Positions 12,950 to 41,113 of a stretch of DNA of 64,000 bases are shown here, one piece after another. The stretch is from Candidatus Cloacimonadota bacterium (GTDB lineage: Bacteria; Cloacimonadota; Cloacimonadia; G963667145): positions 758,630 through 822,629 of the forward strand of contig OY781061.1 of NCBI GenBank assembly GCA_963676515.1. The letters are read 5' to 3'. Made by a program: the position numbers and the translations under genes. Every line of letters starts with the position of its first letter. Position 1 is the first letter of the stretch. The notes beneath the pieces were generated by a model. That model searched no databases and was not told the origin of the DNA. It saw only the letters and a program-made list of their open reading frames with translations.

Positions 12950-13625
12950 CTCCTGACGACAGATTCCCTCATCCTCACGAAAGCTAAGAACCAAAACCAC
13001 AGATGGACACGGATTTCCTCATCCTCGCGAAAGCGGGGATCCAAAGGCGGGCTAGTGATGGCGGTTCTCTCTCGCTAGGCGGGTGGGGTTTCCTCCGCTT
13101 CACGGGCAGAGCCAGAAACACAGTCAGTCGTCTTTGGCACTGCAAAGCCAACAATCGAAAATGCACAGCTAAGAACAAATCTCGGAGGTGCTCTCCACCA
13201 CGGACAACCTACACACCTCACGCCATATCTCCGGAGGATTGAAGCGGAGCGGTTTTCTTTTCTCCTCCAATCTGACCACATAAATGAAATCTCAAATGAT
13301 TAGCTATATTTATGTGGTCAGGGCGGGAAACAAGGTGTGGGAGTGGCTAGTAAATAATTAAAACAGAAAGCGTAAAATTCGTTTACCGCCCAAAGCTACG
13401 CTGACGACGAAGTGCTATATCACCTATGAAAGACAAAATGCGATTCATAGCACGAGGCTGACAGCGTGCGAGGAAGGTTTAGAATTTAGCTTGCTGATTT
13501 GGTATTTTGACTTTACCTTTTGTTACTTTTCGCTTTGGTCAACCAAAGGGAAAAGTAAGACCCTCCGTCAGGAGGCCAGCTAAAAGAATGGATTCCTGCT
13601 TCCGCAGGAATGAGGAATGGTGGTA
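12950..13625. repeat. Mosaic hairpin-rich intergenic repeat, copy 1 (module order A', A, B, C, D, E)
   Basis: It shares long near-identical segments with 36625-37111 (direct) and 35255-35470 (inverted). It contains a GNRA-loop hairpin (atcctcgcgaaagcggggat), a long module-C hairpin (acgctg..gtgctat..atagcac..cagcgt), the module-D hairpin (ttacttttc..ctttggtcaaccaaag..gaaaagtaa) and the module-E hairpin (attcctgcttccgcaggaat). The copy is bounded by ctcctgacg at 12950 and cgtcaggag at 13565. Confidence 0.75.
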
Positions 13626-14648: not shown

Positions 14649-15110
14649 TTATATCTGCTTCAAAAGATTTGCCATCTCCAAAGCACAAACGGCAGCCTCG
14701 GCTCCTTTGTTGCCCGCTTTCGAGCCTGCTCTCTCTATAGCTTGCTCCAGCGTGAGCGTGGTGATAACTCCGAATATCACGGGCACTCCGGTCTGCAACA
14801 TCACATTGGCGATGCCTTTGCTCACCTCCGCACCTACGAACTCGTAATGGCTGGTTTGCCCTTTGATGACAGCTCCCAAGCAGATGATGGCGTCGTATTT
14901 GCCACTAATGGCAAGTTTCTGTGCCGCTAGCGGTATCTCGAAAGCTCCTGGCACTTTGACAATCTCGATGTTGTCTTCTGCTACCTCGTGCCTTTGCAAA
15001 CTGTCCACTGCTCCTTCTACGAGCCTCGTGCCGATGAAATCGTTAAATCTGCTGACCACGATAGCAAATTTACCGCCTGTTCCTATCAATTTTCCTTCAT
15101 AAGTTTTCAT
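14649..15110 (-). CDS. ribH: 6,7-dimethyl-8-ribityllumazine synthase
   Basis: 153 aa; [26 protein letters not shown]...GAFEIP is typical of RibH. Confidence 0.85.
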
Positions 15111-15131
15111 AATTTCTCTCCCAGTATAAAT

Positions 15132-16328
15132 TCAAAATTTCAACAAATGTCCCATTTTATTCTTTTTCGTTTTCAGATAATAGTCGCTTTCGCTGCTGTG
15201 CTTTATTTGGATCTGGACTCTTTCTACGATTTCCAAATCGTATTTGGATAATCCCGATATCTTGTGAGGATTGTTGGTGAGCAAGCGGATCTTGCCAACT
15301 CCCAAATCGCTCAGTATCTGAGCTCCTGTGCTATATTCTCGCATATCTTCGGGGAATCCCAACGCCAAATTCGCCTCCACCGTGTCCATGCCTTGGTCTT
15401 GCAAGTCGTAAGCTTTTATCTTATTCAAGATGCCGATGCCCCTGCCTTCTTGTGTCATATAGAGGAAAACGCCCGTGCCAGCTGACTCTATCAGCTTCAG
15501 AGCTTCCGCTAGCTGTCCTCCACAGTCGCAGCGAAGCGAGCCGAAGGTGTCGCCTGTCAAGCATTCGGAATGCACTCTCACCAAGCACGGCTCATCCTTT
15601 TGCGGTCGTCCCTTTACCAAAGCGATGTGATGCTTGCCAGTGTGAATCTCTCGATATCCCACCATCTGGAATTTGCCATATTTGGTCGGCAACTCGGCAG
15701 ATGCGACTTTTTCCACCAGCTTCTCCTGCTTTTTGCGATATGCTATCAGAGCCTCGATGGTGACAATCTTCAGGCTGTGCTCACGAGCAAACTCTACGAG
15801 TTCAGGCACTCTTGCCATCGTGCCGTCTTTGGACATAATCTCACAGATAACTCCAGCAGGTTTACACCCTGCCATGCGAGCCAAGTCGACTGCAGCCTCT
15901 GTGTGCCCAGCTCTTTCCAGCACTCCTGCATCTTTGGCTGCCAGAGGAAAGATGTGCCCCGGCTGAGTAAAATCCTGGTTCTTGCCGTTATTGTCCAGCA
16001 GTGCCTGAATAGTGCCCGACCTCTCGAAAGCGGAGATGCCCGTAGTGCAATCTTTGTGGTCGACCGAGGCGGTGAAAGCTGTCCCCTTGGCATCGGTGTT
16101 CTTGGCAACCATCGGGAGCAGTCCCAGACTGTCCAGCTTGCTCTGCGTCATCGGCACGCAGACCAGCCCTCTGGCGTGTGTCACCATAAAGTTGATCACC
16201 TGTGGCGTGGCGTGCTCGGCACAAACCAAAATGTCGCCCTCGTTCTCCCGATTCTCATCGTCCACCACGATCACCATCTTTCCCAGTTTGAGGTCAACAA
16301 TAGCTTCCTCTATCTTATTAAAAATCAA
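15132..16328 (-). CDS. ribBA: Bifunctional 3,4-dihydroxy-2-butanone-4-phosphate synthase / GTP cyclohydrolase II
   Basis: 398 aa; the N-terminal DHBP synthase part ([14 protein letters not shown]) and the C-terminal GTP cyclohydrolase II part (CxxC...C zinc motif) are both present. Confidence 0.85.
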
Positions 16329-18178: not shown

Positions 18179-18194
18179 CTACTAAAAAACGCTC

Positions 18195-18335
18195 TACAAC
18201 TTCTCTCATCTAGACTTTAACTATCGGTCTTGGATTTGCACCAAATCAATCTTGCTCAAAGACAAAACTCGCGGACTATTACCGCCGGTCGGGAATTTCA
18301 CCCTGCCCTGAAGTGTTTATTTATAGACAAAGGAA
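18195..18335 (-). promoter_or_regulatory. FMN riboswitch (RFN element) upstream of ribD
   Basis: The minus strand reads GGGCAGGGTGAAATTCCCGACCGGCGGTAATAGTCCGCGAG...GGTGCAAATCCAAGACCGATAGTTAAAGTCTAGATGAGAGAAG, which is the conserved RFN core, upstream of a rib operon. Confidence 0.9.
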
Positions 18336-20019: not shown

Positions 20020-20357
20020 AAATCCCTAACCAATTTTTAATTGCTTTTTCAAAATTTTTATTATTTAAAAGATAAAACCAAGCTTTTTGCTCCCCTGTCA
20101 ACGGTTTTAAGTGGTTCTTTCCTGCGGTTGGACTAATTGTTTTTTTTTGGCTAGCTTATTTTGCCTTGACAGTAAATTTGAGTTATTGTGTTTAGGCTAC
20201 AGATGAGTTGTTTTAATAAAACGAGAGAGTTAATGATTTTGAAGGGAAGGTATAGATAATGAAGATAGCATGCCAAATAAGGAAGATATAGATAATGAAC
20301 ATAGCAAGTAGTTATTCGTCATTTTTTTGAAAATATTTTAGAACTGGAGTAAATACT

Positions 20358-20450
20358 ATGAATATGAGAAATTTCGTTGCAGTTAACAAATCAACTCTTG
20401 AGAATTATTCTAATGTTGAGGCTTCACCATTCTCTATCTTTGAAATATGA
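20358..20450 (+). CDS. Small ORF (30 aa) with GGAG RBS. It is in frame with the next small ORF across a TGA.
   Basis: ATG 20358; TGA 20448-20450. The next ATG at 20475 is in the same frame. Confidence 0.25.
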   Translation: MNMRNFVAVNKSTLENYSNVEASPFSIFEI

Positions 20451-20474
20451 CCAAATGGAGGACAGACCATTGTA

Positions 20475-20615
20475 ATGGCAGTTGCAGCGGATGGAAATGA
20501 ACAAATTGAAAAAAATAAGTTTGGTATCGGTATAGATTTTAATACAGCATGCGATAATTTTATTTCTGATCTCAAGAAAATCTTGGACAATACATATAAA
20601 ATTAATGAATTCTAA
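20475..20615 (+). CDS. Small ORF (46 aa) with GGAGGA RBS
   Basis: MAVAADGNEQIEKNKFGIGIDFNTACDNFISDLKKILDNTYKINEF; its stop overlaps the RBS of the next gene. Confidence 0.3.
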   Translation: MAVAADGNEQIEKNKFGIGIDFNTACDNFISDLKKILDNTYKINEF

Positions 20616-20627
20616 AATTAAAGGAGA

Positions 20628-21002
20628 ATGAAAATGGATTATAAATGGAACAAGGTTATTAACGCTGGCCAAAAAGCAATTGGATATATTGATATTTATG
20701 AAACAAATGCCAAAGGGATCGATATTAGAGCGATTGTTAACTTTTACCCAAATATAGAACAATTTGGAGATAATCGGATATGTAATACAACAATTTTATA
20801 TTCTTGTTCTAAAAGTGATATTACTGATGCATTTTTTCATTTTATTAACGATGATATTATTAAATTAATACAAGGTGAAGAAACTGAGAAATTTGATTCA
20901 ACAACTAAAAAGTTTGAACTGATGATGACTCAACAGTTCTTTGTAAAGGAACTCCCTGAAATGGATTACTTTACTCACGGAGATTATTCAGCAGAAGGAT
21001 AA
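20628..21002 (+). CDS. Hypothetical protein (124 aa) on the low-GC island
   Basis: Strong AAGGAGA RBS; no recognisable motif. Confidence 0.4.
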   Translation: MKMDYKWNKVINAGQKAIGYIDIYETNAKGIDIRAIVNFYPNIEQFGDNRICNTTILYSCSKSDITDAFFHFINDDIIKLIQGEETEKFDSTTKKFELMMTQQFFVKELPEMDYFTHGDYSAEG

Positions 21003-21032
21003 ACTTTAACCACAAAAAAACGACGTATAACA

Positions 21033-21097
21033 GCGAGTACCCGCTACGCTTCGCTCCGTCCAAATTGCTCCCTTCGGTCGCAACTTCGGGTACTCGC
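21033..21097. other. GC-rich hairpin (11-bp stem gcgagtacccg / cgggtactcgc, 43-nt loop) inside the AT-rich island
   Basis: The inverted repeat is read directly from the sequence. Its GC content contrasts sharply with its surroundings. Confidence 0.4.
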
Positions 21098-21183
21098 GGA
21101 ACATTGGGCACAATACAAGAAAAAAAACAGCATAGTTAGATGAAATACTTTACCTTTGCGATTAGACTTTAAATAGAATATTT

Positions 21184-21972
21184 ATGATTAAAATAGAACG
21201 ACTAAAAAAAGCCGATTTAGTGCATTATTGTCAGCAAATAGGCATTGATACAAAAGACAAAAACAAAGATATATTAATTGAAGAAGCTGTTAATTATGGC
21301 AATAATGAAATAACACAAGCATTGAAGAATAATAATGGTATTGAACTACTAACAACTAAAATAGAATGTCTTGCTGAAGATTATTCATCTAACTTAGATT
21401 TGAAAATTTCAGATAGAAAAGCTGAAATGAAAAAAGACGATAATTCTCACTATTTAATTTATCGAGTTTTGGGAATTACACAAGAAGATGGTCGCTTGAT
21501 TGATGAATATCAGAATACTGGACGTTTTTTATATAAATATGCAGGTTCATTTCTTGAAGAGGCAGCTTCTCTTTGTCTGAAATTTAAGAATATAAATGGA
21601 GGAAAAACCCTAATCGATAATAACCAAGGTAAGAAGCCTAAGACATTTGAAATTGACTTTTTGGATGGCAATGATGCTATCGAGATAAAATGGAGAGACG
21701 CAACAACGGACGGTGACCATATTACAAAAGAACACACTAGAGTAAAAGCAATAGAAAGTCAAGGTTATACACCTATTCGTGTTATGTTTTATTATCCTCA
21801 ACGTGAACAAGCAAAGAGAATACAAGCAACTCTTAAAACTATCTATGAAGGTGTTAATGGCAGCTATTTTGCAGGTGACGATGCTTGGACTTTCATTGAG
21901 AGTCATAGTGGCTATAACTTAAAAAAAATATTAACAAAAATTGCAGATAAAAGAACACCACTTAATGGATAA
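21184..21972 (+). CDS. Type II restriction endonuclease (PD-(D/E)xK fold)
   Basis: 262 aa; FEIDFLDGNDAIEIKWRD gives a D...EIK catalytic motif. Its stop overlaps the start of the adjacent methyltransferase (ATGGATAA). Confidence 0.6.
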   Translation: MIKIERLKKADLVHYCQQIGIDTKDKNKDILIEEAVNYGNNEITQALKNNNGIELLTTKIECLAEDYSSNLDLKISDRKAEMKKDDNSHYLIYRVLGITQEDGRLIDEYQNTGRFLYKYAGSFLEEAASLCLKFKNINGGKTLIDNNQGKKPKTFEIDFLDGNDAIEIKWRDATTDGDHITKEHTRVKAIESQGYTPIRVMFYYPQREQAKRIQATLKTIYEGVNGSYFAGDDAWTFIESHSGYNLKKILTKIADKRTPLNG

Positions 21973-23173
21973 AAATAGAATATATAAAGGAAACTGTCTT
22001 GTGCAATTAGCTAAGATTAATTCCGAATCAGTAGATTTAGTATACTTCGACCCACCATTTTTTACACAGAAAAAACATTCTCTTGTAACAAAAGATAACA
22101 CTAAAAAATACGAATTTAGTGACAGTTGGAATTCTATAGAACAATATCTTGAATTAATAGAATTATGTCTAGTTGAATGCCGAAGAATTCTTAAAAAGAC
22201 TGGTAGTGTATTTTTACACTGTGACAAAATTGCGTCACACTATATACGAGTAGCTCTTGACAAGGTATTTGGTGTGGAGCATTTCAGAAGTGAAATAATA
22301 TGGAGTTACAAAAGATGGTCAAACTCTAAAAAAGGTCTTTTAAATTCACATCAAAACATCTATTTTTACTCTAAGGGCAAAGATTTTAAATTTAACCAAT
22401 TTTATACAAATTATGCCCCAACGACGAATGTTGACCAGATTTTACAAGACCGAAAAAAAACCTCAACTGGTAAATCCGTTTACAAAACAGATGTAAATGG
22501 TAATGTCATATTAGGCAAGGAGAAGAAAGGAGTTCCATTATCAGACACTTGGGAAATACCATATTTGAACCCTAAAGCTAAAGAACGAGTTGGATACCCA
22601 ACTCAGAAACCTGTTTTATTACTAAAAGAAGTAATTAAAATTGTCACTAATGAAGGTGATTTAGTAGTAGACCCCTTTTGTGGTAGTGGTACAACTTGTG
22701 TTGCTGCTAAATCGATGTCTAGAAATTTCATTGGTATAGATATTTCTAGTGATGCAGTGGAACTAGCAAATAGTAGACTTGAAAAAATGATAATTACAGA
22801 TTCAAATCTATTAAAGAAGGGAGCCAATAGCTATTTAGAAAAAAATGAAGCTGACATTTCATTACTTAAAAGCATTGATGCAATTCCGGTACAACGAAAT
22901 TCAGGTATCGATGGATTTTTAAAAATGCATTTTAAAGACAAACCTGTACCTGTAAAGATTCAAGCTAAAACTGAATCATTAGATGATGCTATTGAAAAAC
23001 TGGAAAAAGCCTCGAATAAAAAAGGCTATGAATTAAAGATAGTAATTCAAACATCCAGTAATAATATCCCTAGCCTTTTTGAACATAATTCAGATATAAA
23101 AATAATAAAGTCCAATAAAATAATCATTGAAGAATTGGCAAACATAAGTACTGTGCCCAACAGGCTAGCATAG
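21965..23173 (+). CDS. DNA methyltransferase, beta-class N6-adenine/N4-cytosine (motif IV DPPF precedes motif I FCGSGTT)
   Basis: VYFDPPFF...DPFCGSGTTCVAAKSMSRNFIGIDIS; there is an about 130-aa C-terminal extension. Confidence 0.8.
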   Translation: MDKNRIYKGNCLVQLAKINSESVDLVYFDPPFFTQKKHSLVTKDNTKKYEFSDSWNSIEQYLELIELCLVECRRILKKTGSVFLHCDKIASHYIRVALDKVFGVEHFRSEIIWSYKRWSNSKKGLLNSHQNIYFYSKGKDFKFNQFYTNYAPTTNVDQILQDRKKTSTGKSVYKTDVNGNVILGKEKKGVPLSDTWEIPYLNPKAKERVGYPTQKPVLLLKEVIKIVTNEGDLVVDPFCGSGTTCVAAKSMSRNFIGIDISSDAVELANSRLEKMIITDSNLLKKGANSYLEKNEADISLLKSIDAIPVQRNSGIDGFLKMHFKDKPVPVKIQAKTESLDDAIEKLEKASNKKGYELKIVIQTSSNNIPSLFEHNSDIKIIKSNKIIIEELANISTVPNRLA

Positions 23174-23224
23174 ATAATATGGCAATGAGGCTGTTACTCC
23201 ATTTTCAGTGGTTTCTAGCAGCTC

Positions 23225-23285
23225 CGCCAAATCAGAGATTTGACAGTGTCTGAAATGGAAAGTTCACAGTAAAATCTCTGATTTG
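23225..23285. other. Perfect 16-bp inverted repeat (gccaaatcagagattt / aaatctctgatttggc) with a 29-nt spacer at the right edge of the R-M island
   Basis: Read directly from the sequence. No U tract follows on either strand. Confidence 0.4.
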
Positions 23286-23376
23286 GCTAAGTAATGGTCA
23301 GAACGATTTTTGATTTCTACATGCCATACTATCCATCTAGCAATCGTTAAAAACTAGGCTCAAGATAAATTTCTCT

Positions 23377-31529: not shown

Positions 31530-32528
31530 CTACTTAACGAACATCTCTTTTATGCTTTTTATTGAGCCTAGCAAAGCTGACGATTCGTAAGGCACGACTA
31601 CCGTTTTATCGCCGTGTTGGGTCACTTTTTGGAAAGCCTCGATGTATTTGAGAGCCATCAGATACTGTGCAGGGTCTGTGCCTGTCGCTTGCACGCTGGA
31701 GGAGATTTTGCCGATAGCTAACGCCTCTGCATCTGCCACCAACAGCCTAGATTGAGCTTGTCCCTCGGCATTTTTGATAGCCGACTCTTTCGCTCCTTCT
31801 GCTTCCAATATCAGTGCCATCTTGCTACCTTCTGCTGTGAGTATCTTGGCTCGCCTGTCCCGCTCTGCACGCATCTGCTTCTCCATCGCTTCCCTTATCT
31901 CTTTCGGCGGATTGATGTCTTGCAGCTCCACTCTGTTCACCTTGACTCCCCATTTGTCTGTGGCGTCGTCCAAGATGTCCCTCAGCTTAGCGTTGATAGT
32001 ATCGCGAGAGGTGAGCGTCTTGTCCAAATCCATCTCGCCGATCACATTCCGCAATGTCGTCTGTGTCAGCTTCTCGATAGCATTGGGCAAGTTGATAATC
32101 TTATACACCGATTTCACGGGATCCATCACTTGGAAATAGAGCAGTGCGTTAATCTCGATGCCCACATTGTCCGCGGTAATCACATTTTGCCTCGGGAAAT
32201 CGTAAACTGTCTCTCGCAGGTCAATCCTGCTGACCATCCTCGATGACACAATCGTTTGCCCTTGCATATTCGTTCGCAAAGTCCGCCACTCGATCGTCCT
32301 GATCTTGTCCAAGATTGGGATGATAAAACCGATACCGCTTTGCAAAGTCCTAGAATAGCGACCCAGCCGCTCTATGATGATTACCTCCGATTGCTTGACG
32401 ATTACCACACCTTTGGCAATAAAAACAATAATCAAAATCAGCAATAAGACGGGAAAATAATTACTTAACATTCTTCCTCCATTTTTTTCTTTATTTAGTA
32501 GGCATCCTTTTGCTCTCGCTTTCGTCAA
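31530..32528 (-). CDS. SPFH/band-7 (stomatin/HflC-like) membrane protein
   Basis: 332 aa; N-terminal TM anchor, then an SPFH domain and a coiled-coil. Confidence 0.7.
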   Translation of the reverse strand: MTKARAKGCLLNKEKNGGRMLSNYFPVLLLILIIVFIAKGVVIVKQSEVIIIERLGRYSRTLQSGIGFIIPILDKIRTIEWRTLRTNMQGQTIVSSRMVSRIDLRETVYDFPRQNVITADNVGIEINALLYFQVMDPVKSVYKIINLPNAIEKLTQTTLRNVIGEMDLDKTLTSRDTINAKLRDILDDATDKWGVKVNRVELQDINPPKEIREAMEKQMRAERDRRAKILTAEGSKMALILEAEGAKESAIKNAEGQAQSRLLVADAEALAIGKISSSVQATGTDPAQYLMALKYIEAFQKVTQHGDKTVVVPYESSALLGSIKSIKEMFVK

Positions 32529-32582
32529 TGTTAATCACTGAGAATATACAAAAGAAAAATAATTGACAACTTTTAGTTAAAT

Positions 32583-32609
32583 TAGCAATCTGGCTTCAAG
32601 AGTGCTAGT
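32583..32609 (+). promoter_or_regulatory. CIRCE-like HrcA operator (TTAGCAATC-N9-GAGTGCTAG) in the clpB promoter. A TTGACA -35 hexamer lies at 32563-32568.
   Basis: Matches TTAGCACTC-N9-GAGTGCTAA with 3 mismatches; located 30 nt upstream of the clpB ATG. Confidence 0.55.
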
Positions 32610-32638
32610 TTTTAGCACCAAAACTTTTAGGAGGAAAT

Positions 32639-35179
32639 ATGAACTTCAATAAATACACCATTAAATCGAAAGAGTGTTTGCAAAAAGCCGCCGATTTGGC
32701 TACAGAGTACGGACATCAGGAGATAAGAGGTCTGCACCTTTTGCTCGCTGCTCTGACAGTAGAGGACTCGCTCGTGCCGACTTTGCTCCAAAAGGTGGAA
32801 ATCCAGCCTACTGTAGCCCAAGAGCGGACAAAAGCAAAGCTGAGCGAGTACCCGAGGGTAGAGGGCAGCTCTCCGGCTTACCTCAACGCAGAAGCCAACA
32901 AAGCTCTTTTGCTTGCCGAAAAAATCGCTGGTCAGTTTCAAGACGAGTTCGTAAGCCTAGAGCATCTTTTGCTCGCTTTGGTGAAAAGTTGTCGCGACAT
33001 CCAAGAAATATTGGGCAATCCCCAAGAGAAAGATTTGCTCAAAGCTATCCAAGAGATAAGAGGCAACCACAAGGTGGACAGCGAGAATCCCGAAGCGAAG
33101 TACCAAGTATTGGACAAATACACGCGAAACCTCACGGACTTGGCGAGAAAGGAGAAGCTCGACCCTGTAATTGGCAGAGACGATGAAATCCGTCGCACTA
33201 TCCAGATATTGTCTCGTCGCAGGAAAAATAACCCTGTGCTCATCGGAGAGCCAGGAGTAGGGAAGACAGCCATCATCGAAGGCTTGGCACGGAGGATTAT
33301 CGACCGTGATGTCCCCGAAAACCTCAAGAACAGAACAGTTTTGGAGCTAGATATGGCTTTGCTACTAGCAGGGGCGAAATACCGTGGCGAGTTTGAGGAA
33401 AGGCTCAAAGCGGTCTTGAAAGAGGTGGAGAGCTCCAACGGCGAGATTATCCTCTTCATCGACGAGCTCCACACCATAGTGGGAGCCGGTGCTGCCGAGG
33501 GGCAGAGCGATGCCTCCAATATGCTCAAGCCTGCTCTCGCCAGGGGCGAGCTGCGTTGCATAGGTGCGACCACCCTGAGCGAGTACAAGAAGTACATCGA
33601 AAAGGACGCCGCTCTCGAACGCCGCTTTCAACCTGTAATTGTCGGAGAGCCAAGCATTGCCGACACCATCTCCATCTTGCGAGGCATAAAGGACAAATAC
33701 CAAGTGCATCACGGCTTGCAAATCACCGACGAAGCTCTGATAGCAGCAGGCAAGCTCTCTGCACGATACATCAACGATCGGTTCCTACCCGACAAAGCTA
33801 TCGACCTGATGGACGAAGCGTGTGCCTCGGTGCGGATGCAAATCGACTCGATGCCCCAAGAGCTGGACGATATGAAACGCAAGATACAGCAGTTGGAGAT
33901 AGAAGAGCTTTCTTTTAAAGGCGAAGCCAAAGGGAAAAGGGAAAAGGCTCAATCTGAAATCGCTAATCTCAAAGAGAAGTTTTCTATTATGATGGACAAA
34001 TGGAAGCAAGAGAAGGACAATCTGAACAAAATCGGTGATGTGAACGACAAGCTGGACAAAGCCAAGTCGGAGATGGAGATTGCCCAAAGAAATGGCGACC
34101 TAGAGACTGCGTCGCGGCTGAAATACGGCACGATTATTGCACTGGAAAAACAACTGGAAACTGCCAAGGAGAATTTGAGTAAGAAGGCGGAAGGTTCTCA
34201 GATGGTGAGCAAAATCGTGGACGCCGCTACCATCGCCACGATTATCTCCAAATGGACGAACATCCCGCTGGAGAGCCTGCTAAAGAGCGAAGCCGAAAAA
34301 CTGACGAATATGGAAGAGATTCTGAGCAAAAAGGTCATCGGGCAAAAGGAAGGCATCGTCGCTGTGTCCAACGCCATCCGCAGAGCCAGAAGCGGATTTT
34401 CCGATGAGAACGCTCCCATCGGCTCGTTCCTCTTTTTGGGTCCAACCGGAGTCGGCAAAACTTACCTCACGCAAGAGCTGACTCGCCTTTTGTTCAACGA
34501 CAAAAAAGCGATGTTCCGCTACGATATGAGCGAGTTTATGGAGAAGCACTCCGTCTCCAGACTCATCGGTGCTCCTCCGGGATATGTCGGTTACGAAGAA
34601 GGCGGCAAGCTCACGGAAGAGGTGCGACGACACCCTTATTGCGTTTTGCTGTTTGATGAAATCGAAAAGGCTCATCCCGATGTTTTCAATATTTTCTTGC
34701 AAATCTTGGACGAAGGCAGACTCACCGATGGCAAAGGTCGCACGGTCAATTTCCGCAACACCATCATCGTGATGACCAGCAACATCGGAGCGAATCGCCT
34801 ACTGGAAGCCAAAAACAGCCAAGATGTGGAAGCGGAAGTTTTGCAAGACATCAAGTCACATTTTCGCCCAGAGTTCATCAACCGCATCTCACAGACGGTG
34901 GTTTTCCACAAGCTAAAAGAGAAAGAGATCAAGCAAATCGTCCTTTTAGAGCTTTCCACTCTGCAAAAACGCTTACAAGAGAAAGGGTTTACGCTGTCGT
35001 TGAGTGATAGAGCTGTGGACGCTCTTGCCAAAATTGGCTTCGATCCGCAGTTTGGAGCAAGACCGATAAAAAGAGCTATCCAAGAGAATTTGGAGAATAT
35101 GCTCGCTCAGAAGTTTCTGCAAGGCGAGCTCCCAGAAAAAGTGGAAGTGGATTATGATAAGGGGTTTGTGATTAAATAA
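32639..35179 (+). CDS. clpB: ATP-dependent chaperone ClpB
   Basis: 846 aa; two AAA+ modules ([16 protein letters not shown]) and a middle coiled-coil. Confidence 0.9.
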
Positions 35180-35192
35180 TCTCAGTATCTTG

Positions 35193-35226
35193 CTGGCGAG
35201 CTTTCTGGCTCGCCAGTTTTGTTTTT
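35193..35226 (+). terminator. clpB intrinsic terminator
   Basis: ctggcgagc-tttctg-gctcgccag followed by ttttgttttt. Confidence 0.85.
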
Positions 35227-35254
35227 CGCTCTTCTCTTTAAAGGTGTCCGCCTA

Positions 35255-35470
35255 CAGCGGATTACTTTGTCACTTTTCCCTTTTGATGAAAAAAGCGAAA
35301 AGTAACACAAAAGGTAAATTCAAAATACGAAATCAATTAGCTAAATTCCTAAACCATCCATCTCACGCTAATACTGCTCGTGCTATGAATCACTTTTGTT
35401 CTTTTTTTGGTGATATAGCACATCGCAATTAGCGTAGTTCAGTCGGTATAAGTAATTTTACGCTTCTTGA
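35255..35470. repeat. Mosaic hairpin repeat, copy 3 (inverted copy of modules D and C)
   Basis: The reverse complement aligns along its length with 13395-13580 and 36880-37111. The outer stem of module C has changed from acgctg/cagcgt to gctaat/attagc, a compensatory change. Confidence 0.75.
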
Positions 35471-35587
35471 TTTGAGTATTTCCTTGGTGGCTTCTGGGGA
35501 TTTGTGTCAAATACTTGAAAAACCACATGTGGTATGCCTAGTTTGAGCGGGCTAAAGCCCTTGAGTTTACTGCTAAACGACAATTAT

Positions 35588-36430
35588 TTATGAGCTAGTG
35601 TTAAGCAATGCCTTTTTTATTTTAACCATTTTTAACTCATTAGATTTCTCAAGAGTTATAATTTTATCCATAAAATCAGAAAATCCTTTCTTGGTAACGA
35701 CAAAAATATATGCCATTTTTGATTCTTTCTTATAATGGTAATTAAAAACAAGAATTGAGGACTCAACTTTTATTAGTTTTTCTTCTTGCATTTCATATAA
35801 ATCTTCATTTATTAAAAGAATTGGCATATATAAAAAGTGTCTAAAATGCTCATTCGCAGAAATGGATTCTGGATTACCAATCTCAAATAATTCCAACCTA
35901 GATTCACAATATTCTACAATTTTTGATAATCCGCTATGGATATTGTCTGGATGAAAAGCCATTAATTCATCTTTGTTTTTCTTTTTTTGGAATGAGCAAT
36001 ATTGCGTATAGGTTTTTACCTTTTCATTTTCTATTAGTGAAGTATAAAATGAATCATGCAATCTATAATCGATACCCACAGGTAATGTAAATGCTTCTTT
36101 CAAACCACACCATGCTTCAATGTTTGGTGAAGGTTCAGCTTTTGTTAATAGTATTAGGGGTAATCTGTTATTTTTAAGCTCAAAAACAAATTTTGTCTTG
36201 CAAATAACCTTTTCTTCGACATACCTATAGTATTCTGCAGTAATGTCAATTTCTCTGCTTTTGCCAGTAATTGGGTCTTCAATAGCTTGGTTTGATTCTA
36301 CGAAAAATCCAGCTTTAGAAAGACTTGAAGATATTTCTGATTCCAATAAATATCCTGACCTTTTTAAAGCTTCTAGCATTTTTTCCTCTGACAATTTATT
36401 GTGAGTGCTCATTTCTTTAAGGTTTTGCAC
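35588..36430 (-). CDS. Hypothetical protein (280 aa) with an N-terminal PD-(D/E)xK-like nuclease motif, on a low-GC islet
   Basis: GY..ESEI...REIDITAE...FVFELK has the spacing of a restriction-endonuclease-like catalytic core. The gene is flanked by inverted copies of the repeat family. Confidence 0.4.
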   Translation of the reverse strand: MQNLKEMSTHNKLSEEKMLEALKRSGYLLESEISSSLSKAGFFVESNQAIEDPITGKSREIDITAEYYRYVEEKVICKTKFVFELKNNRLPLILLTKAEPSPNIEAWCGLKEAFTLPVGIDYRLHDSFYTSLIENEKVKTYTQYCSFQKKKNKDELMAFHPDNIHSGLSKIVEYCESRLELFEIGNPESISANEHFRHFLYMPILLINEDLYEMQEEKLIKVESSILVFNYHYKKESKMAYIFVVTKKGFSDFMDKIITLEKSNELKMVKIKKALLNTSS

Positions 36431-36624
36431 AACAATCCACTCCCCTCAACATGTCTCACACACTTCCATATTGGCACAGTATGCGAACGCTTTGTTCGGT
36501 TATTCTCTATTCCTTCGCATAATCTTTTCATCTATACCCTCTCGCTCTTTCCCGCATAATAGCTGTTCCTATTTCCTGTCAATCAAAATAAGTTACGCCC
36601 GAAATTTGGAAATTCATAGATAAA

Positions 36625-37111
36625 GGTCTGTGTCTCTGGCTCTATCCCGTGAAGCGGAGGAAACCCCAACCCAACTAGCAAGTGAGAAAGCCCTACGACT
36701 CTCGTGCATCGTGTTAGAGAATGGATTCCCGCTTCCGCGGGAATGAGGGCTGGTGGGCAGGAATAATGGCTGGTGATAACGCAAAGCGAGTGGCGTGCAG
36801 GAATGATGGCTGGTGGTATGCTTTCTTGTTTCTCTATCCTCATCCTCGCGAAAGCGGGGATCCAGAGATGGGTTGGGCTAAGAAAAAACTTTAAGCAAGT
36901 AGCTTACAATTACTTATGCCGACCGAGCTACGCTGAAAAGCGATGTGCTATATCTCCCAAAAACGATAAAATGTGATTCATAGCACGAGTTTTGCCAGCG
37001 TGCGAGGGATGGCTTAGTAATTTTGCTAGTGGCTTAGGTTTTTTTGACTTTACCTTTTGTTACTTTTAGCTTTGGTCAGCCAAAGGGAAAAGTAAGACCC
37101 TCCGTCAGGAG
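36625..37111. repeat. Mosaic hairpin repeat, copy 2 (module order B-inverted, E with 3 tandem sub-repeats, A, C, D)
   Basis: Modules C and D are collinear with copy 1. The module-E hairpin carries the compensatory pair cccgc/gcggg where copy 1 has cctgc/gcagg. Module B is present as its reverse complement. Confidence 0.75.
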
Positions 37112-37388
37112 AGCAAATTAAAGAAAATGAACTATTATTTTGGGAATGCATAGCAAACAAAGCATACAGTTAATTAATTAACACATATACACTCCCAAGC
37201 TGGAGCTTGGGAGCGAAAAAAAAAATTTCATATTATTCTCCTACTTTAAAAGCCTAGCAAAATATTCGTGATGCAAATAAAACATTTTTTGAATTGAGTA
37301 CAACGGCTTGTATATAAATCGGTTAGCATTTCGAAGCCCATCGCTTCAAAGCACTATTAATTTTCTACATTATTGTGCACAGCATTTT

Positions 37389-38249
37389 TTATTCTTTATT
37401 AATCAATCCTCCTAAAATTACTGAAATCATACCTATCATATATACTAATAGAAATGGCTCCTTGAAAAATAAAATCAACAATATAGTTGAAATCACAGGA
37501 GTCAAAAAAACGAAGGGTGCCATAAACGAGGCTTTACCAATTTTTAGTGCTCCAATCCAGAAAATATATGAGATTCCGTTTACAAATATTCCGTTTATTA
37601 AAATCGGCAAAATAGTATCTTGTGTCGGCAATTTAAATTCCGAAAGAAGAATCATTGAAATAAATGAGATTACTGTTGCGGTTAAAAAATAAATTGTAAC
37701 AAGAGATAATGAATCAATTTTAACCTTTTTACTGAGTACAGAAAAAAGCCCAAATACGAACGCTGCTAACAATACAATACTATCAACAAAAAAATTATCA
37801 AAGTGAATATCAGTCAATTCCCCTTTAGTCAAAACCATAAAAACTCCGAAGAATCCTAGAATTATTGAAATCACTTTTCGCAAATTCAGTCTTTCTTTTA
37901 AAATCAAGATTGATAAAACTATCACAAAAATTGGCCAACAGTATTGTATTATAAGAACCTCAATGCCTTTTGCATTCGCGTATCCAAAATACACTAAAAT
38001 ATAGTACAAGTATGTTCCTAGCAATCCTAAAACAATTGATTGAATCCAATCTTTAGCTGAAAGCCTTAGAAGTAAAAAAACTTTTTTCTTTATCAGGATT
38101 ATCGCTAAAAAAGTCAAAAATGAAATCACGCTTGACCAAAAAAGAAATTGGTAATTATTAAGATTTGATTGTCCTAATTTTGAAACTACAGGAATCATTG
38201 CCCACAATAGGACACAAATCAGAACATATATTATTGATTTTGTTTTCAT
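37389..38249 (-). CDS. EamA/DMT-family transporter (second, divergent, low-GC copy)
   Basis: 286 aa; a 10-TM EamA-like pattern. Confidence 0.6.
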   Translation of the reverse strand: MKTKSIIYVLICVLLWAMIPVVSKLGQSNLNNYQFLFWSSVISFLTFLAIILIKKKVFLLLRLSAKDWIQSIVLGLLGTYLYYILVYFGYANAKGIEVLIIQYCWPIFVIVLSILILKERLNLRKVISIILGFFGVFMVLTKGELTDIHFDNFFVDSIVLLAAFVFGLFSVLSKKVKIDSLSLVTIYFLTATVISFISMILLSEFKLPTQDTILPILINGIFVNGISYIFWIGALKIGKASFMAPFVFLTPVISTILLILFFKEPFLLVYMIGMISVILGGLINKE

Positions 38250-38416
38250 CTTATCTTTTACTTTCTCCCCTATATAATAACTGTTTCTTTTGCTGTAAAT
38301 CCAAAATAGGTTACGCTCGAAATTTTGTAAATATTGTCAATCTCTTCCCTTTCGTTGGAAACTAGAGAAAAAAGGCAGGATAAATCCTGCCTTTTCGTTA
38401 TCGTTAAGAAATTGTC

Positions 38417-40630
38417 TTAATCTCTTTTTTTGTAGTCTCTTCTTGGTCTTCTGTCTCGGCTGTCTCGGCTATCGCGTCTATCGCCGGAAGGTCTCCTCTC
38501 AGTCCTTTTGTTGGGGTCTACCCCACAACTGGCTACTGTCGGGTTACCCTCTATGCCGTCCATAGCTAGGCTGATTTTGCCTTCCTTAAAGCCGACAAAG
38601 CGAACCTTGACCTTATCGCCAATTTTTACCAAGTCGGCAGGGTCATCCACGCGTGCGTTGTCCATTTTGGAGACATGCACCATACCTTGCTTGTTATACA
38701 TAAACTTCACAAAGGCACCGTAAGCCTCGACTCTGGTCACTTCGCCTTCATAGATTTTATCTCTTTCGGGGTCTTCCACAATGCTTTTCACGATAGCCAT
38801 CGCCTTGCTCAGAGCCTCAGCATCTGGCGAAGCGATAGACACTCTACCATCGTCGTCGATGTTGATATCCGCACCTGTAACCTCGATAATTTCTTTGATT
38901 ACCTTGCCACCAGCACCGATTACTTGGCTTATCTTGTCTTTGGCAACCATAATGCTCTCAATCTTCGGAGCGTACTTACTCAGCTCTTTCGATGGCTCAG
39001 AGATGCATTCCTTTATCTTGCCCAAGATGTGGAGTCTGGCGATTTTCGCTTTTTCCAGAGCCAACTTCATTATCTCTTTGGTAATTCCGTCTATCTTGAT
39101 GTCCATCTGAATAGCGGTGATACCGTCCTCAGTTCCAGTCACCTTGAAGTCCATATCGCCCAAGTGATCTTCCATCCCTTGGATGTCGGTGAGGATTACG
39201 AAATTCTCGCCATCCATCACAAGACCGTTAGCGATACCAGCCACAGCTTTTTTGATCGGCACACCTGCTGCCATCATCGCTGTACAGCAACTACACACAC
39301 TCGCCATAGAGCTAGAGCCGTTGGATTCCAAAATCTCGGAAACCGCTCTAATGGTGTAAGGGAAATCCTCACCATCTGGCATCACAGCGTACATCGACCT
39401 CTCAGCCAAGTGTCCGTGACCAAGCTCTCTTCTGCCCGGAGGACGCATAAATCCAGCCTCGCCCACACAAAATGGCGGAAAGTTATAGTGTAAAAAGTAA
39501 TTTTTGAAATGCTTCTCGCTCAAATCGTCTATCATTTGCTTGTCTCTAGGGCTACCCAAAGTTATCACACCCAAACTCTGTGTCTCGCCTCTGGTGAAAA
39601 GTGCCGAGCCGTGAGCTCTAGGCAATATGTCTTTTTCCACAGTAATCGGGCGAATTTGATCCAAACCACGACCGTCTGGACGACATCCAGCCAAAATCAA
39701 ATCGCGGACAATCTCTTTGAGGTATTTCTCAAAAGCGTCTTTGTAATCTGCTCCGCTCTCCAGAATCTCTTCCTCAGAAAGCTTCTCTTCCATCATCGTG
39801 ATAAGCTCTTGTTTGAGCTCTTTCAGAGCGTCATCTTTCGGCAATTTCTCGGTAATCTCGTTAGCTTTCTTTATCTTGTCGTAGAAATTGTCTTTCACGA
39901 AAGCCAGAGCTTCTTCTTTCAGCTCATGCACCTCAAAGACAAATTTCTCTTTGCTGCAATCTTTAGCGAACTCTTTTTGAAAAGCCACAATCTCTTTGAT
40001 CTTATCGTGAGCCATATAGATAGCGTCCAAAAGAACCTCTTCCGAAAGCTCCCAAGCACCTGATTCCACCATATTCACATTCTCGTATGTCCCCGAAACT
40101 GACAACTCCAACTCAGAGCCTTCTATCTGTTCTTTGTTGGGGAATACGACAAGCTCGTCTCCTTTTTTGGAAACGAAAGCTCCTGCTATCGGTCCTGCGA
40201 AAGGGATATCCGAGATAGTCAACGCGGCACTAGCGACGATTGAACCCAAAGAACCCAAATCGGCGTCTTCGTCGTAACTCATCACGGTCAGCACTACATG
40301 CACAGCGTTCTTGAACCCCTTAGGGAACAATGGACGCAATCCACGGTCTATCTCCCTTGCTATGAGTATCGAACTCACTGGAGGCTTAGACTCTCTCTTG
40401 AAAAATCCGCCCGGAATTTTGCCCGAAGCATACATCTTGGGGATAAAATCCACCGTAAGCGGGAAAAAGCCTTGCCCTTCCCTTGCTTGTTTTTCGCCAG
40501 TGGCTGCTGCCAAAATGACGGTTTCGCCATATGTTAGCAACACCGAGCCGTTAGCTTGTTTCGCCATTCTCCCTGTTTCTAGGGTCAGCGTTTTACCAGA
40601 AATCTCCATCGATTTTCTAATAATATTCAT
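38417..40630 (-). CDS. pnp: Polyribonucleotide nucleotidyltransferase (PNPase)
   Basis: 737 aa; two RNase PH domains, KH and S1 domains, and an Arg/Asp/Ser-rich C-terminal tail. Confidence 0.9.
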   Translation of the reverse strand: MNIIRKSMEISGKTLTLETGRMAKQANGSVLLTYGETVILAAATGEKQAREGQGFFPLTVDFIPKMYASGKIPGGFFKRESKPPVSSILIAREIDRGLRPLFPKGFKNAVHVVLTVMSYDEDADLGSLGSIVASAALTISDIPFAGPIAGAFVSKKGDELVVFPNKEQIEGSELELSVSGTYENVNMVESGAWELSEEVLLDAIYMAHDKIKEIVAFQKEFAKDCSKEKFVFEVHELKEEALAFVKDNFYDKIKKANEITEKLPKDDALKELKQELITMMEEKLSEEEILESGADYKDAFEKYLKEIVRDLILAGCRPDGRGLDQIRPITVEKDILPRAHGSALFTRGETQSLGVITLGSPRDKQMIDDLSEKHFKNYFLHYNFPPFCVGEAGFMRPPGRRELGHGHLAERSMYAVMPDGEDFPYTIRAVSEILESNGSSSMASVCSCCTAMMAAGVPIKKAVAGIANGLVMDGENFVILTDIQGMEDHLGDMDFKVTGTEDGITAIQMDIKIDGITKEIMKLALEKAKIARLHILGKIKECISEPSKELSKYAPKIESIMVAKDKISQVIGAGGKVIKEIIEVTGADINIDDDGRVSIASPDAEALSKAMAIVKSIVEDPERDKIYEGEVTRVEAYGAFVKFMYNKQGMVHVSKMDNARVDDPADLVKIGDKVKVRFVGFKEGKISLAMDGIEGNPTVASCGVDPNKRTERRPSGDRRDSRDSRDRRPRRDYKKRD

Positions 40631-40698
40631 TCTTTTCTCCTTGTGTTTTTGCCGACATCACGCCTTATCTTCGATTATTTAAAAGACAACAAGAAAAA

Positions 40699-40752
40699 AA
40701 GCAATAACCAAAAATTCTTTGTTTATTACAACCAAGAATTTTGATTATTGCT
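40699..40752 (-). promoter_or_regulatory. Long imperfect hairpin plus U tract between rpsO and pnp (terminator/RNase III-type leader structure)
   Basis: Minus RNA agcaauaaucaaaauucuu...aagaauuuuugguuauugcu followed by U7. Confidence 0.5.
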
Positions 40753-40843
40753 AAAAATCTGAATTTTGTCTTATTTTTCAAAAATTTACGGCGTTAAGTC
40801 GAACCTTTTTAAAATAATGAGAAAAGTAAAAGGTAAAACCCTT

Positions 40844-41113
40844 CTACTTCCTCAAACCTAATTTAGCTACTAAAGCTCTGTATCTTTCGATATCTTTACC
40901 TTTCAGATATTCCAAAAGTTTCCTTCTGCGTCCCACAAGTTTTAGCAAACCTCTTCTAGAGTGGTGATCTTTTTTGTGGATATCCAAGTGAGCGGTTATG
41001 TTCTTGATGTTGTTGGTCATCAGAGCTACTTGTACCTCTGGTGAACCTGTGTCTGTTTCGTGAAGTTTAAACTCTACCACGATTGCTTCTTTGGCTTGAT
41101 TAGTAAGTGCCAT
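40844..41113 (-). CDS. rpsO: 30S ribosomal protein S15
   Basis: 89 aa; typical S15 sequence. Confidence 0.9.

What the first reader, a model, noticed from the sequence alone, without database searches (positions are those of the whole stretch)
35255..37111. A 280-aa PD-(D/E)xK-like gene is bracketed by inverted ~200-bp copies of the repeat, a cassette-like arrangement
Copy 3 (35255-35470) is the reverse complement of modules C and D. Copy 2 (36625-37111) carries C and D in direct orientation. Together they form terminal inverted repeats with module D at both outer ends, around the low-GC ORF 35588-36430. That ORF has an N-terminal GY..EIDITAE..FELK motif resembling a restriction-endonuclease-fold catalytic core. 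The geometry resembles a MITE-flanked or transposon-like cargo, with the repeat family acting as its ends. Alternatively the repeats may be preferred insertion sites for foreign DNA.
Basis: partly seen in the sequence, partly recalled or inferred. Interest (0 to 1): 0.65.

Follow-up and report, generated by a model that had tools for sequence, protein, structure and literature searches.

The report
Swappable defence-gene slot between clpB and pnp
The gene flanked by inverted repeats is a foreign, restriction-enzyme-like nuclease sitting in a genomic slot that carries a different (mostly anti-virus) gene in each related bacterium, and the repeats are old structured intergenic elements, not the ends of a jumping unit.

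Summary
Two ~215-255 nt repeat copies in inverted orientation (35256-35490 and 36861-37116, 79% identical) bracket a low-GC 280-aa ORF.

The transposon or MITE-cassette reading fails.
- The arms share at most 17 identical bases in a row, and there is no target-site duplication.
- A sister genome (83-90% nt identity) keeps the left arm at the same site. It lacks the right arm and carries a different gene there, a GmrSD type IV restriction enzyme.
- Three further relatives have DarTG, an IS plus a radical-SAM gene, or a 777-aa secreted-type protein plus an IS between the same core genes, with no copy of the repeat.

The real unit is a ~3.2-kb low-GC variable islet (about 35195-38360) between the 3' ends of convergent clpB and pnp. 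This is a small defence hotspot.

The repeats are a lineage-specific palindromic element with compensatory changes. They are more conserved between species than the flanking coding sequence. Each lies downstream of a gene's 3' end.

The parts
35192..35217 (+). clpB intrinsic terminator (11-bp stem plus T-run). It marks the left edge of the variable islet; homology to the more distant relatives stops at 35154-35194.
35236..35500 (-). CD repeat copy 3, the left arm (core 35256-35490). The small hairpin 35246-35262 and the D hairpin 35272-35308 face the clpB 3' end. The long C hairpin is about 35321-35480. The copy is conserved at 93-94% in the sister genome.
35491..35572 (.). Conserved tail between the left arm and the 3' end of the cargo (89% identity to the relative). 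The left breakpoint of the cargo swap is at about 35572.
35588..36430 (-). 280-aa cargo gene, with a probable true start at ATG 36412. The N-terminal ~130 aa form a PD-(D/E)xK nuclease domain (E30, D62, E84, K86). The C-terminal ~145 aa have no known fold. GC is 29.7%.
36409..36531 (-). 40-codon leader ORF (MKRLCEGIENNR...). Its TGA overlaps the cargo ATG (ATGA). The first 12 codons are conserved upstream of GmrSD in the relative.
36495..36599 (-). Block X, a 105-nt conserved upstream block (85% identity to the relative). It is a paralogue of the region just upstream of EamA, ATG included (38250-38330), and is presumably a promoter and leader. The right breakpoint of the cargo swap is at about 36497.
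36625..36860 (.). Mosaic of short REP-like modules. 36628-36688 is inverted relative to 13065-13123. 36718-36756 and 36837-36867 are direct copies of 13585-13623 and 13016-13046. A 20-nt tandem motif lies at 36737-36816. The whole stretch is absent from the relative.
36861..37116 (+). CD repeat copy 2, the right arm. The D hairpin (37060-37095) and the small hairpin (37097-37114) face the 3' end of EamA. The copy is absent from the sister genome.
37389..38249 (-). Low-GC (29%) EamA-family transporter gene, part of the islet. It is 99% identical in the sister genome and absent from the slot in three further relatives.
38369..38396 (.). Hairpin terminator downstream of pnp. It marks the right edge of the variable islet; homology to the more distant relatives resumes at 38359-38418.
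13330..13581 (+). CD repeat copy 1, with its D end facing the 3' end of a second EamA gene (13686-14627, - strand). In the sister genome this locus has two direct copies around an extra 760-aa gene.

Best explanation
The 1.85-kb 'cassette' is the inner part of a ~3.2-kb low-GC islet (window about 35195-38360). The islet lies between the 3' ends of two convergent core genes, clpB and pnp. In this lineage (closed genomes of about 1.56-1.58 Mb; the nearest named PNPase relatives are Cloacimonadota at 55-62%) that interval is a hypervariable slot. It holds a different, mostly anti-phage, gene set in each genome.

Shown: slot variability, the breakpoints, the foreign composition of the islet, and the nuclease fold with its catalytic residues.

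Inferred (a): the 280-aa protein is a stand-alone DNA endonuclease without a methyltransferase, of restriction or type-IV-like kind, that cuts invading DNA through the D62/E84/K86 metal site. Its C-terminal domain of unknown fold probably provides target recognition or regulation.

Inferred (b): cargo is replaced by recombination in the conserved flanks. These are the core genes, or the short conserved upstream block X and the 3' tail. In some relatives IS activity may contribute. The flanking repeats are not involved.

Inferred (c): the two arms are independent, old copies of a lineage-specific ~235-255-nt palindromic intergenic element, made of a ~160-nt long hairpin C, a 16-bp hairpin D and a small terminator-like hairpin. 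The element sits downstream of gene 3' ends, always with its D end toward the upstream gene. The inverted geometry therefore follows from clpB and EamA being transcribed toward each other. The element is under selection for its hairpin structure. It most plausibly acts at the RNA level as a 3'-end, terminator or stability element, in the manner of ERIC or BIME repeats.
For: Slot:
- The sister genome L004 has clpB, left arm, GmrSD (687 aa; PF03235+PF07510; PADLOC Orf5/mREase_IV), block X, EamA and pnp.
- L093 has pnp, DarT, DarG, clpB.
- L094 has a 777-aa protein plus an rve IS.
- L095 has a DDE IS plus a radical-SAM gene with a weak hit to candidate defence family PDC-M51A.
- Homology to the window stops at the clpB and pnp stop regions.
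- Slot GC is 30-42% against 42-47% for the loci.

Breakpoints: 35572 and 36497, both internal to the arms.

Protein:
- 323 homologues at 47-60% identity across phyla, with no Pfam, NCBIfam, PADLOC or PDB sequence hit.
- 1078, 427 and 75 cluster representatives at E<=1e-3, 1e-10 and 1e-30.
- Invariant E30, R59, E60, D62, E84, K86 and N87.
- AF2 pLDDT 90.2, pTM 0.89.
- Homologues sit next to the HEPN protein Ymh, Mrr, NERD, HNH, CBASS and HsdR, next to SieB and a DUF559 protein, or as solo islets between housekeeping genes. Ymh is described as occurring in operons with R-M systems (PMC3710099).

Repeats:
- The arms are 79% identical and the longest exact run is 17 nt.
- Orthologous copy 3 is 93-94% identical between species. 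clpB is 82.5% identical (third codon positions 61%) and a neutral spacer is 69%.
- Copy 1 is 84-88% identical to its counterparts, against 79% for the flanking coding sequence.
- The consensus structure has 68 pairs, 94.5% of cells paired, and 9 pairs with changes on both sides. None of 500 shuffles reaches this, and slid controls give 33-47% paired.
- The D-end hairpin plus T-run is flagged as terminator-like, facing the upstream gene, in all three window copies. The two strong copies in L089 have the same orientation relative to the gene upstream.
Against: - No experiment and no transcript data are available.
- The defence role rests on genomic position, neighbours and fold only. No PADLOC model matches, and there is no hit in the phage or plasmid collections.
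- Not every slot occupant is a defence gene (EamA; the 777-aa secreted-type protein).
- The RNA-level role of the repeat is uncertain. G.U pairs (17 against 0) and lower folding energy favour the C-to-D strand. The gene context favours read-through on the opposite strand.
- The high interspecies identity of copy 3 could partly reflect recent recombination, as seen for the adjacent EamA segment at 99%.
- Only six copies from two genomes could be sampled. In those two genomes the repeat does adjoin variable genes at two loci, so some role in rearrangement is not excluded.
Confidence: 0.7

Rival explanations
1. One reading: the two inverted copies are the terminal inverted repeats of a composite or MITE-flanked transposable unit that carries the nuclease gene as cargo and moves as a 1.85-kb block.
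For: Inverted ~215-nt arms with module D outermost. The cargo is foreign and low in GC.
Against: The relative keeps the left arm at the same site but lacks the right arm and has a different cargo, and the breakpoints are internal to the arms. The arms are 79% identical with at most 17 nt of exact match, and there is no TSD. No transposase lies in or beside the unit. Paralogous copies (77-83%) are more diverged than orthologous ones (88-94%), so the copies predate the species split. Homologues of the gene elsewhere have unrelated flanks.
Confidence: 0.04
2. The CD repeats are recombination substrates, either homologous or for a site-specific or ssDNA-hairpin recombinase (RAYT/IS200-like or integron-like). 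In that role they promote gain, loss or exchange of the genes next to them and so create the hotspot.
For: In the two genomes that have the repeat, it adjoins variable genes at two loci. One is the cargo swap at clpB-pnp. The other is a 760-aa gene flanked by direct ~500-nt repeat blocks in L089, where the window has a single copy. The hairpins are imperfect and strand-asymmetric (G.T on one strand only), like ssDNA recombination sites.
Against: The slot is equally variable in three relatives that have no CD copy within 22 kb. The swap breakpoints do not coincide with repeat ends. No integrase or Y1 transposase was seen next to any copy. The copies are old and diverged. The inverted orientation does not fit one-repeat-per-cassette arrays.
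Confidence: 0.15
3. The 280-aa protein is not an immunity nuclease. It is instead a toxin-like or selfish nuclease (such as an orphan restriction enzyme, a homing-type enzyme or an addiction gene), or a DNA-repair or structure-specific nuclease (Hjc/NucS-like) acquired horizontally.
For: The best structural neighbours include Holliday-junction resolvases and NucS. Some homologues sit alone between housekeeping genes. No defence-library model matches.
Against: The distribution is patchy across phyla at 50-60% identity. Homologues occur in defence islands next to HEPN, Mrr, CBASS and HsdR genes. The equivalent position in relatives is filled by GmrSD and DarTG. Repair nucleases are normally vertically inherited and have the host's composition, whereas this gene has 30% GC.
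Confidence: 0.2
4. The CD element is an independently transcribed small-RNA gene family (transcribed from C to D), and the arrangement around the nuclease gene is incidental.
For: The structure is conserved with compensatory changes. G.U pairs occur only on the C-to-D strand, and the folding energy is lower on that strand in 6 of 6 copies. Interspecies conservation exceeds that of coding sequence.
Against: No conserved promoter lies upstream of C. There is no Rfam match. No clear terminator follows D on that strand. The perfect-palindrome architecture is more typical of MITE, ERIC or REPIN-type repeats.
Confidence: 0.15

Closest known systems
Core defence hotspots (cDHS1/2 of Pseudomonas aeruginosa, PMC10250203; E. 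coli defence-island hotspots, PMC10121019) and Neisseria 'minimal mobile elements' (Saunders & Snyder 2002, cited in PMC1538595)
   Same: A fixed interval between conserved core genes carries different whole-gene cargo, largely defence genes, in related genomes. Here that cargo is the PD-(D/E)xK gene, GmrSD, DarTG or a radical-SAM gene. In three of the five genomes the interval holds no mobility gene. This resembles MMEs, where exchange is attributed to recombination in the flanks.
   Different: The slot is very small (2-5.5 kb, one or two genes) and sits between the 3' ends of convergent clpB and pnp, in an uncultured lineage with a small genome. A conserved upstream block and leader ORF persist while the ORF downstream is replaced. 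Only five genomes were sampled, and the exchange mechanism was not demonstrated.
PD-(D/E)xK nucleases: archaeal Hjc (1ob8), AF1548 (1y88), Can2 nuclease domain (7bdv), McrC (6hz4), FokI cleavage domain (2fok), NgoMIV/Cfr10I-type type II enzymes
Long palindromic intergenic repeats: ERIC/IRU, REPINs (PMC3116915), Correia elements (PMC2649163), BIME/NIME mosaics, pneumococcal BOX
   Same: The element is strictly intergenic and is an imperfect palindrome that folds into a long hairpin. It is modular and occurs in mosaics with other short palindromes, downstream of genes. Copies at orthologous sites are conserved between species. Its hairpins are terminator-like.
   Different: The sequence is unrelated to any of these families. 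No copy was found outside two sister genomes (metagenome scans). The copies are diverged (77-88%) rather than products of a recent burst. No TIR-plus-TA duplication (Correia) was seen, and no RAYT (REPIN) is known. Copy number per genome is unknown.
GmrSD-type (type IV, modification-dependent) restriction enzymes
   Same: A single-gene defence nuclease without a methyltransferase occupies exactly the same slot in the sister genome. This suggests functional equivalence.
   Different: There is no homology. GmrSD is DUF262 (ParB-like NTPase) plus DUF1524 (HNH-type), whereas the window protein is PD-(D/E)xK. Dependence on DNA modification is untested.

Membership tests
TIR-bounded transposon / MITE-flanked composite element | Near-identical terminal inverted repeats at the outer ends | tested here: not met
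   The arms are 78.7% identical over 216 nt, and the longest exact match is 17 nt.
TIR-bounded transposon / MITE-flanked composite element | Target-site duplication abutting both ends | tested here: not met
   No abutting direct repeat was found. The only shared word is TTAAAG, which is part of the repeat consensus and lies 12-17 nt from the left end.
TIR-bounded transposon / MITE-flanked composite element | Presence or absence of the whole unit in relatives, with breakpoints at the outer ends | tested here: not met
   The sister genome keeps the left arm, lacks the right arm and has a different cargo. The breakpoints, at 35572 and 36497, are internal to the arms.
TIR-bounded transposon / MITE-flanked composite element | A cognate transposase, in cis or elsewhere in the genome | not testable with these tools
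   None lies in 35180-38416.
PD-(D/E)xK nuclease superfamily | Restriction-endonuclease-like alpha/beta core fold | tested here: met
PD-(D/E)xK nuclease superfamily | Conserved catalytic D...(D/E)-x-K residues | tested here: met
   D62, E84 and K86, together with E30, R59, E60 and N87, are invariant in 67 homologues of 46-60% identity.
PD-(D/E)xK nuclease superfamily | Metal-dependent nuclease activity | not testable with these tools
   This needs biochemistry.
Defence hotspot / minimal mobile element between core genes | The same flanking core genes, in the same order, across relatives | tested here: met
   rpsO, pnp, the slot and clpB occur in that order in the window, L004, L093, L094 and L095.
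Defence hotspot / minimal mobile element between core genes | Different gene content in the interval among relatives, enriched in defence genes | tested here: met
   The occupants are the PD-(D/E)xK gene, GmrSD, DarTG, and a radical-SAM gene with a weak hit to candidate defence family PDC-M51A. Non-defence occupants are EamA and a 777-aa secreted-type protein.
Defence hotspot / minimal mobile element between core genes | For an MME: no mobility genes, and exchange by homologous recombination in the flanks | tested here: inconclusive
   No mobility gene is present in the window, L004 or L093, but IS transposases occur in L094 and L095. The 99% identical EamA segment shows recent recombination. 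The mechanism was not demonstrated.
Integron gene cassette (ORF plus attC) | One attC-type imperfect palindrome per cassette, all in the same orientation, next to an intI/attI platform | tested here: not met
   The copies around the gene are inverted. The core is 235-255 nt with conserved sequence. No integrase ORF lies in 32000-41000.
ERIC/REPIN/Correia-like palindromic intergenic repeats | An intergenic, dispersed, imperfect palindrome that folds as a long hairpin | tested here: met
   There are 3 copies in the window and 3-4 in 43 kb of the sister genome, all intergenic. The structure has 68 pairs, 94.5% of cells paired, and 9 pairs with compensatory change.
ERIC/REPIN/Correia-like palindromic intergenic repeats | Sequence membership in a described family | tested here: not met
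   No Rfam hit. No match in the metagenome scans apart from 3 chance hits.
ERIC/REPIN/Correia-like palindromic intergenic repeats | A mobilising enzyme (a RAYT for REPINs) or TA duplication (Correia) | not testable with these tools
   The whole genome is unavailable, and no clean empty site was recovered.

The most novel reading that the evidence does not exclude
Two things may be new here. First, the ~280-aa family (about 1,000 cluster representatives, no curated model anywhere) may be a new single-gene anti-phage restriction-like system, with a PD-(D/E)xK head and a C-terminal sensor domain of novel fold. Second, the CD element may be a new class of structured 3'-flank element that, together with the conserved promoter and leader block X, forms a fixed 'expression socket' into which different defence ORFs are swapped.
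Probability: 0.2. Interest if true: 0.65.

Novelty: new member of a known kind. Interest (0 to 1): 0.4.

Why it matters
It turns an apparent mobile cassette into a cleaner and more useful object. This is a compact hotspot bounded by core genes (pnp-clpB) in a barely studied lineage with a small genome, whose nearest named relatives are Cloacimonadota. Defence genes are exchanged there ORF by ORF. Such hotspots are productive places to find new immune genes. The occupant in this genome belongs to a sizeable, completely uncurated nuclease family that could be tested directly. The repeat is a lineage-specific structured element under selection, and it is worth a transcriptomic look. None of this overturns current concepts.

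Tried and rejected
- Two metagenome contigs pattern scans were run, one for the C hairpin and one for the D hairpin. They gave 0 hits and 3 chance hits with no CD homology.
- Rfam at gathering and at E<=10 gave only generic hairpin noise. ARAGORN found no tRNA, so a tRNA-derived origin, suggested by a D-arm-like GTAGTTCAGTCGGTA, was dropped.
- Sequence searches of the protein were all empty: Pfam, NCBIfam, PADLOC, PHROGs, PDB (single sequence and profile), and Pfam on 67 close and 10 distant family members.
- tblastn against the phage and plasmid collections gave no match.
- Foldseek against the PDB gave only weak hits to the nuclease core. The afdb50 library was unavailable.
- An integron-cassette reading and an invertible-segment (phase-variation) reading were considered and rejected. 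The grounds were orientation, arm divergence (17-nt longest identity) and the absence of a recombinase.
- The look-up of encoding contigs could not retrieve the window's own genome, so a genome-wide census of the repeat was impossible.
Full report
**1. Observation**

The region was read directly and scanned for repeats.

- A ~215-nt inverted repeat brackets ORF 35588-36430 (-). The arms are 35272-35485 and 36880-37093, 78.7% identical, blastn E=3e-46.
- A profile built from the copies places the common core at 35256-35490 (-), 36861-37116 (+) and 13330-13581 (+). It finds nothing else in the 64 kb.
These are shared with 13016-13123 and 13585-13623 in mixed orientations.
- The ORF has 29.7% GC, against 42% for the window and about 47-50% for neighbouring core genes.

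**2. Is it a mobile unit bounded by the repeats? No.**

Exact-sequence look-ups showed that ClpB and PNPase of the window have >90% identical counterparts on a second closed genome of 1,555,846 bp. The 280-aa protein has no such counterpart.

That genome's locus (L004) is 83-90% identical to the window at the nucleotide level. Its features are:
- The left arm is present at the orthologous site (L004 12619-12852).
- Homology breaks at window 35572, just after the stop codon of the cargo.
- The gene there is a 687-aa GmrSD type IV restriction enzyme (PF03235+PF07510, with strong PADLOC hits).
- Homology resumes at window 36497 for a 105-nt block ('X', 36495-36599).
- It breaks again: the whole right arm and its accessory modules (36600-37337) are replaced by 261 unrelated bases.
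- It resumes at 37338 through EamA, pnp and rpsO.

So the swap boundaries are internal to the arms, and one arm is dispensable. The arms also share no more than 17 consecutive identical bases. No target duplication abuts them, and no transposase or recombinase ORF lies between clpB and pnp.

**3. What the locus is**

A PNPase search turned up three more relatives (88, 84 and 83% PNPase identity). It also showed that the nearest named organisms are Cloacimonadota, at only 55-62%.

All three relatives keep rpsO, pnp, a slot and clpB in that order, but the slot holds:
- DarT-DarG in L093.
- A 67-aa ORF, a 777-aa signal-peptide protein and an rve IS in L094.
- A DDE IS plus a radical-SAM protein with a weak hit to the candidate defence family PDC-M51A in L095.

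Homology to the window stops at the clpB stop region (35154-35194) and resumes at the pnp stop region (38359-38418). None of these three loci contains a CD copy.

The real variable unit is therefore about 35195-38360. It runs from the clpB terminator (35192-35217) to the pnp terminator (38369-38396). It includes both arms, the cargo, block X and the low-GC EamA gene. Slot GC is 30-42% in every genome.

This matches the known pattern of defence hotspots between core genes (PMC10250203; PMC10121019) and of Neisseria minimal mobile elements (Saunders & Snyder 2002, cited in PMC1538595).

Two details are worth recording:
- Block X is a paralogue of the region immediately upstream of EamA, its ATG included. 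It opens a short leader ORF whose first 12 codons are conserved in both genomes (MKRLCEGIENNR / MKRLDEAIENKR). In the window this ORF ends in an ATGA overlap with the probable cargo start at 36412. The expression signals persist while the ORF behind them is exchanged.
- The EamA segment (37338-38416) is 98-99% identical between the two species, while pnp next to it is 86%. This is direct evidence of recent recombination in the slot.

**4. The protein**

No Pfam, NCBIfam, PADLOC, PHROG or PDB sequence match exists for the protein or for its family profile.

It nevertheless has 323 homologues at 47-60% identity. They are scattered over Bacteroidota, Pseudomonadota, Planctomycetota and unclassified metagenomic contigs. 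A profile search of 1.84 billion cluster representatives gives 1078, 427 and 75 hits at E<=1e-3, 1e-10 and 1e-30. Almost all are full-length proteins of 270-320 aa.

In 67 aligned homologues E30, R59, E60, D62, E84, K86 and N87 are invariant.

Genomic contexts of homologues:
- Two defence islands, where the gene is followed by a Ymh (PF09509) protein. The surrounding genes are Mrr, NERD, HNH, CBASS, PIN and HsdR. Ymh is a HEPN RNase family described as occurring in operons with R-M systems (PMC3710099).
- One islet with SieB and a DUF559/Vsr-like protein.
- Two solo insertions between housekeeping genes.

No homologue occurs in the phage or plasmid collections.

Taken together with the occupants of the same slot in relatives (GmrSD, DarTG), the most likely function is a stand-alone restriction-like DNA endonuclease without a methyltransferase, used in defence. 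This is an inference, which I put at about 0.55-0.6. The fold and the active site are shown.

**5. The repeat**

Six copies could be aligned: three from the window, the orthologue of copy 3, and two strong copies from the sister genome's locus L089.

- *Structure.* RNAalifold gives a ~160-nt long hairpin (module C), the 16-bp D hairpin and a small terminal hairpin.
- *Covariation.* Of 68 pairs, 94.5% of cells pair, and 9 pairs show changes on both sides (17 cells). None of 500 column shuffles reaches these values. Slid controls pair at only 33-47%. The numbers are small and the sequences are related, so this counts as supportive, not proof.
- *Strand.* G.U pairs occur only on the C-to-D strand (17 against 0). 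That strand folds more stably in all six copies.
- *Conservation.* Orthologous copy 3 is 93-94% identical between species. clpB is 82.5% (third codon positions 61%) and an ordinary spacer is 69%. Copy 1 is 84-88% identical to its counterparts, against about 79% for the flanking genes. Paralogues are 77-83%. The copies are therefore old and constrained, not a recent burst.
- *Position.* Every copy lies downstream of a gene's 3' end with its D end toward that gene. The pairs are clpB and copy 3, EamA-286 and copy 2, EamA-313 and copy 1, and EamA and the 760-aa gene for the two L089 copies. The D-end hairpin plus T-run is scored terminator-like in that direction in all three window copies.

The inverted geometry around the nuclease gene thus follows simply from clpB and EamA being transcribed toward each other.

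There is no Rfam family, and no copy outside these two genomes was found. The closest known kinds are ERIC, REPIN, Correia and BIME-type palindromic intergenic repeats (PMC3116915; PMC2649163). Membership in any named family is not met.

Function is uncertain. I favour an RNA-level role at mRNA 3' ends (termination or stability). However, the strand favoured by G.U pairs is opposite to the read-through strand. This remains unexplained.

**6. Residual link between repeats and variability**

In L089 a 760-aa gene lies between two direct ~500-nt repeat blocks that contain CD cores (11839-12346 and 15709-16145, 80% identical). The window has a single copy 1 and no such gene. The 760-aa protein is 34% identical to the 777-aa protein in the L094 slot.

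The repeats may therefore occasionally mediate deletion or duplication. This keeps the 'recombination substrate' rival alive at about 0.15. The hotspot itself does not depend on them.

**7. Verdict**

The finding is a new example of known kinds:
- a compact defence hotspot bounded by core genes;
- an uncurated PD-(D/E)xK family that is a reasonable candidate defence gene;
- a lineage-specific structured intergenic repeat.

Interest is moderate (0.4).

Noticed in passing
window 20100-23350 (and L089 1469-4908): This is a second variable defence islet. The window carries an ApaLI-like restriction endonuclease (21184-21972, PF09499, E=3e-83) and an N6/N4 DNA methyltransferase (21941-23173). At the same place the sister genome has AAA_21+RloB, an Abi_C protein and a phage-integrase fragment.
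   Followed up: partly
L089 11839-16145 vs window 12740-13690: In the sister genome a 760-aa signal-peptide protein (13117-15399) sits between two direct ~500-nt repeat blocks that contain CD cores. The window has one CD copy and no such gene. The protein is 34% identical to the 777-aa protein in the pnp-clpB slot of L094.
   Followed up: partly
window 37338-38416: The low-GC EamA gene and its flanks are 98-99% identical between the two species. The adjacent pnp is 86% and clpB 82.5%. This points to a very recent exchange or shared acquisition of the segment.
   Followed up: partly
window 36409-36531 (-); L004 15044-15100 (-): A short leader ORF starts in conserved block X. It has 40 codons in the window, with its TGA overlapping the cargo ATG as ATGA, and 18 codons in the relative, ending 7 nt before the GmrSD ATG. 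The first 12 codons are conserved while the rest differs with the cargo.
   Followed up: partly
window 1-12362 (-): A reading frame is open for at least 4120 codons and runs off the window start. The orthologue in the sister genome is called at 11,099 aa with no Pfam hit. A second giant gene (>3481 aa, DUF285) lies upstream of band-7/clpB in L004.
   Followed up: no
window 18194-18319 (-): An FMN riboswitch (Rfam RF00050, 110 bits) lies upstream of the ribD-ribE-ribBA-ribH operon.
   Followed up: no
window 36718-36867, 13016-13046, 13585-13623: Short GC-rich REP-like palindromes are present (GGATTCCCGCTTCCGCGGGAATGA; CCTCATCCTCGCGAAAGCGGGGATCC), together with a 20-nt tandem motif GCAGGAATGATGGCTGGTGG at 36737-36816. 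They recur in different orders and orientations next to CD copies.
   Followed up: no
window 37186-37219; L089 11752-11791, 12100-12141, 15659-15705, 16245-16284: Another palindromic module (GCTCCCAAGCTCCAGCTTGGGAG, scored terminator-like) recurs at least four times in 5 kb of the sister genome and once in the window.
   Followed up: no
L089 11551-11580 and 12503-12532: A variant of the D module has a different stem sequence (TTACTCTTTTCGG/CCGAAAAGAGTAA) but the same flanks (GTTACT...AGTAAGCCCTCCGCAGGAG). This suggests a broader family of hairpin modules whose stems covary.
   Followed up: no
L095 18232-22096: In one relative an MmeI-like type IIG/ISP restriction-modification gene (850 aa) and Type_ISP_C fragments lie on the other side of clpB. 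The neighbourhood of clpB attracts defence genes on both sides there.
   Followed up: no
whole window / related loci: The organism belongs to an unnamed lineage with closed genomes of about 1.56-1.58 Mb. The best named PNPase relatives are Cloacimonadota MAGs at 55-62%.
   Followed up: partly
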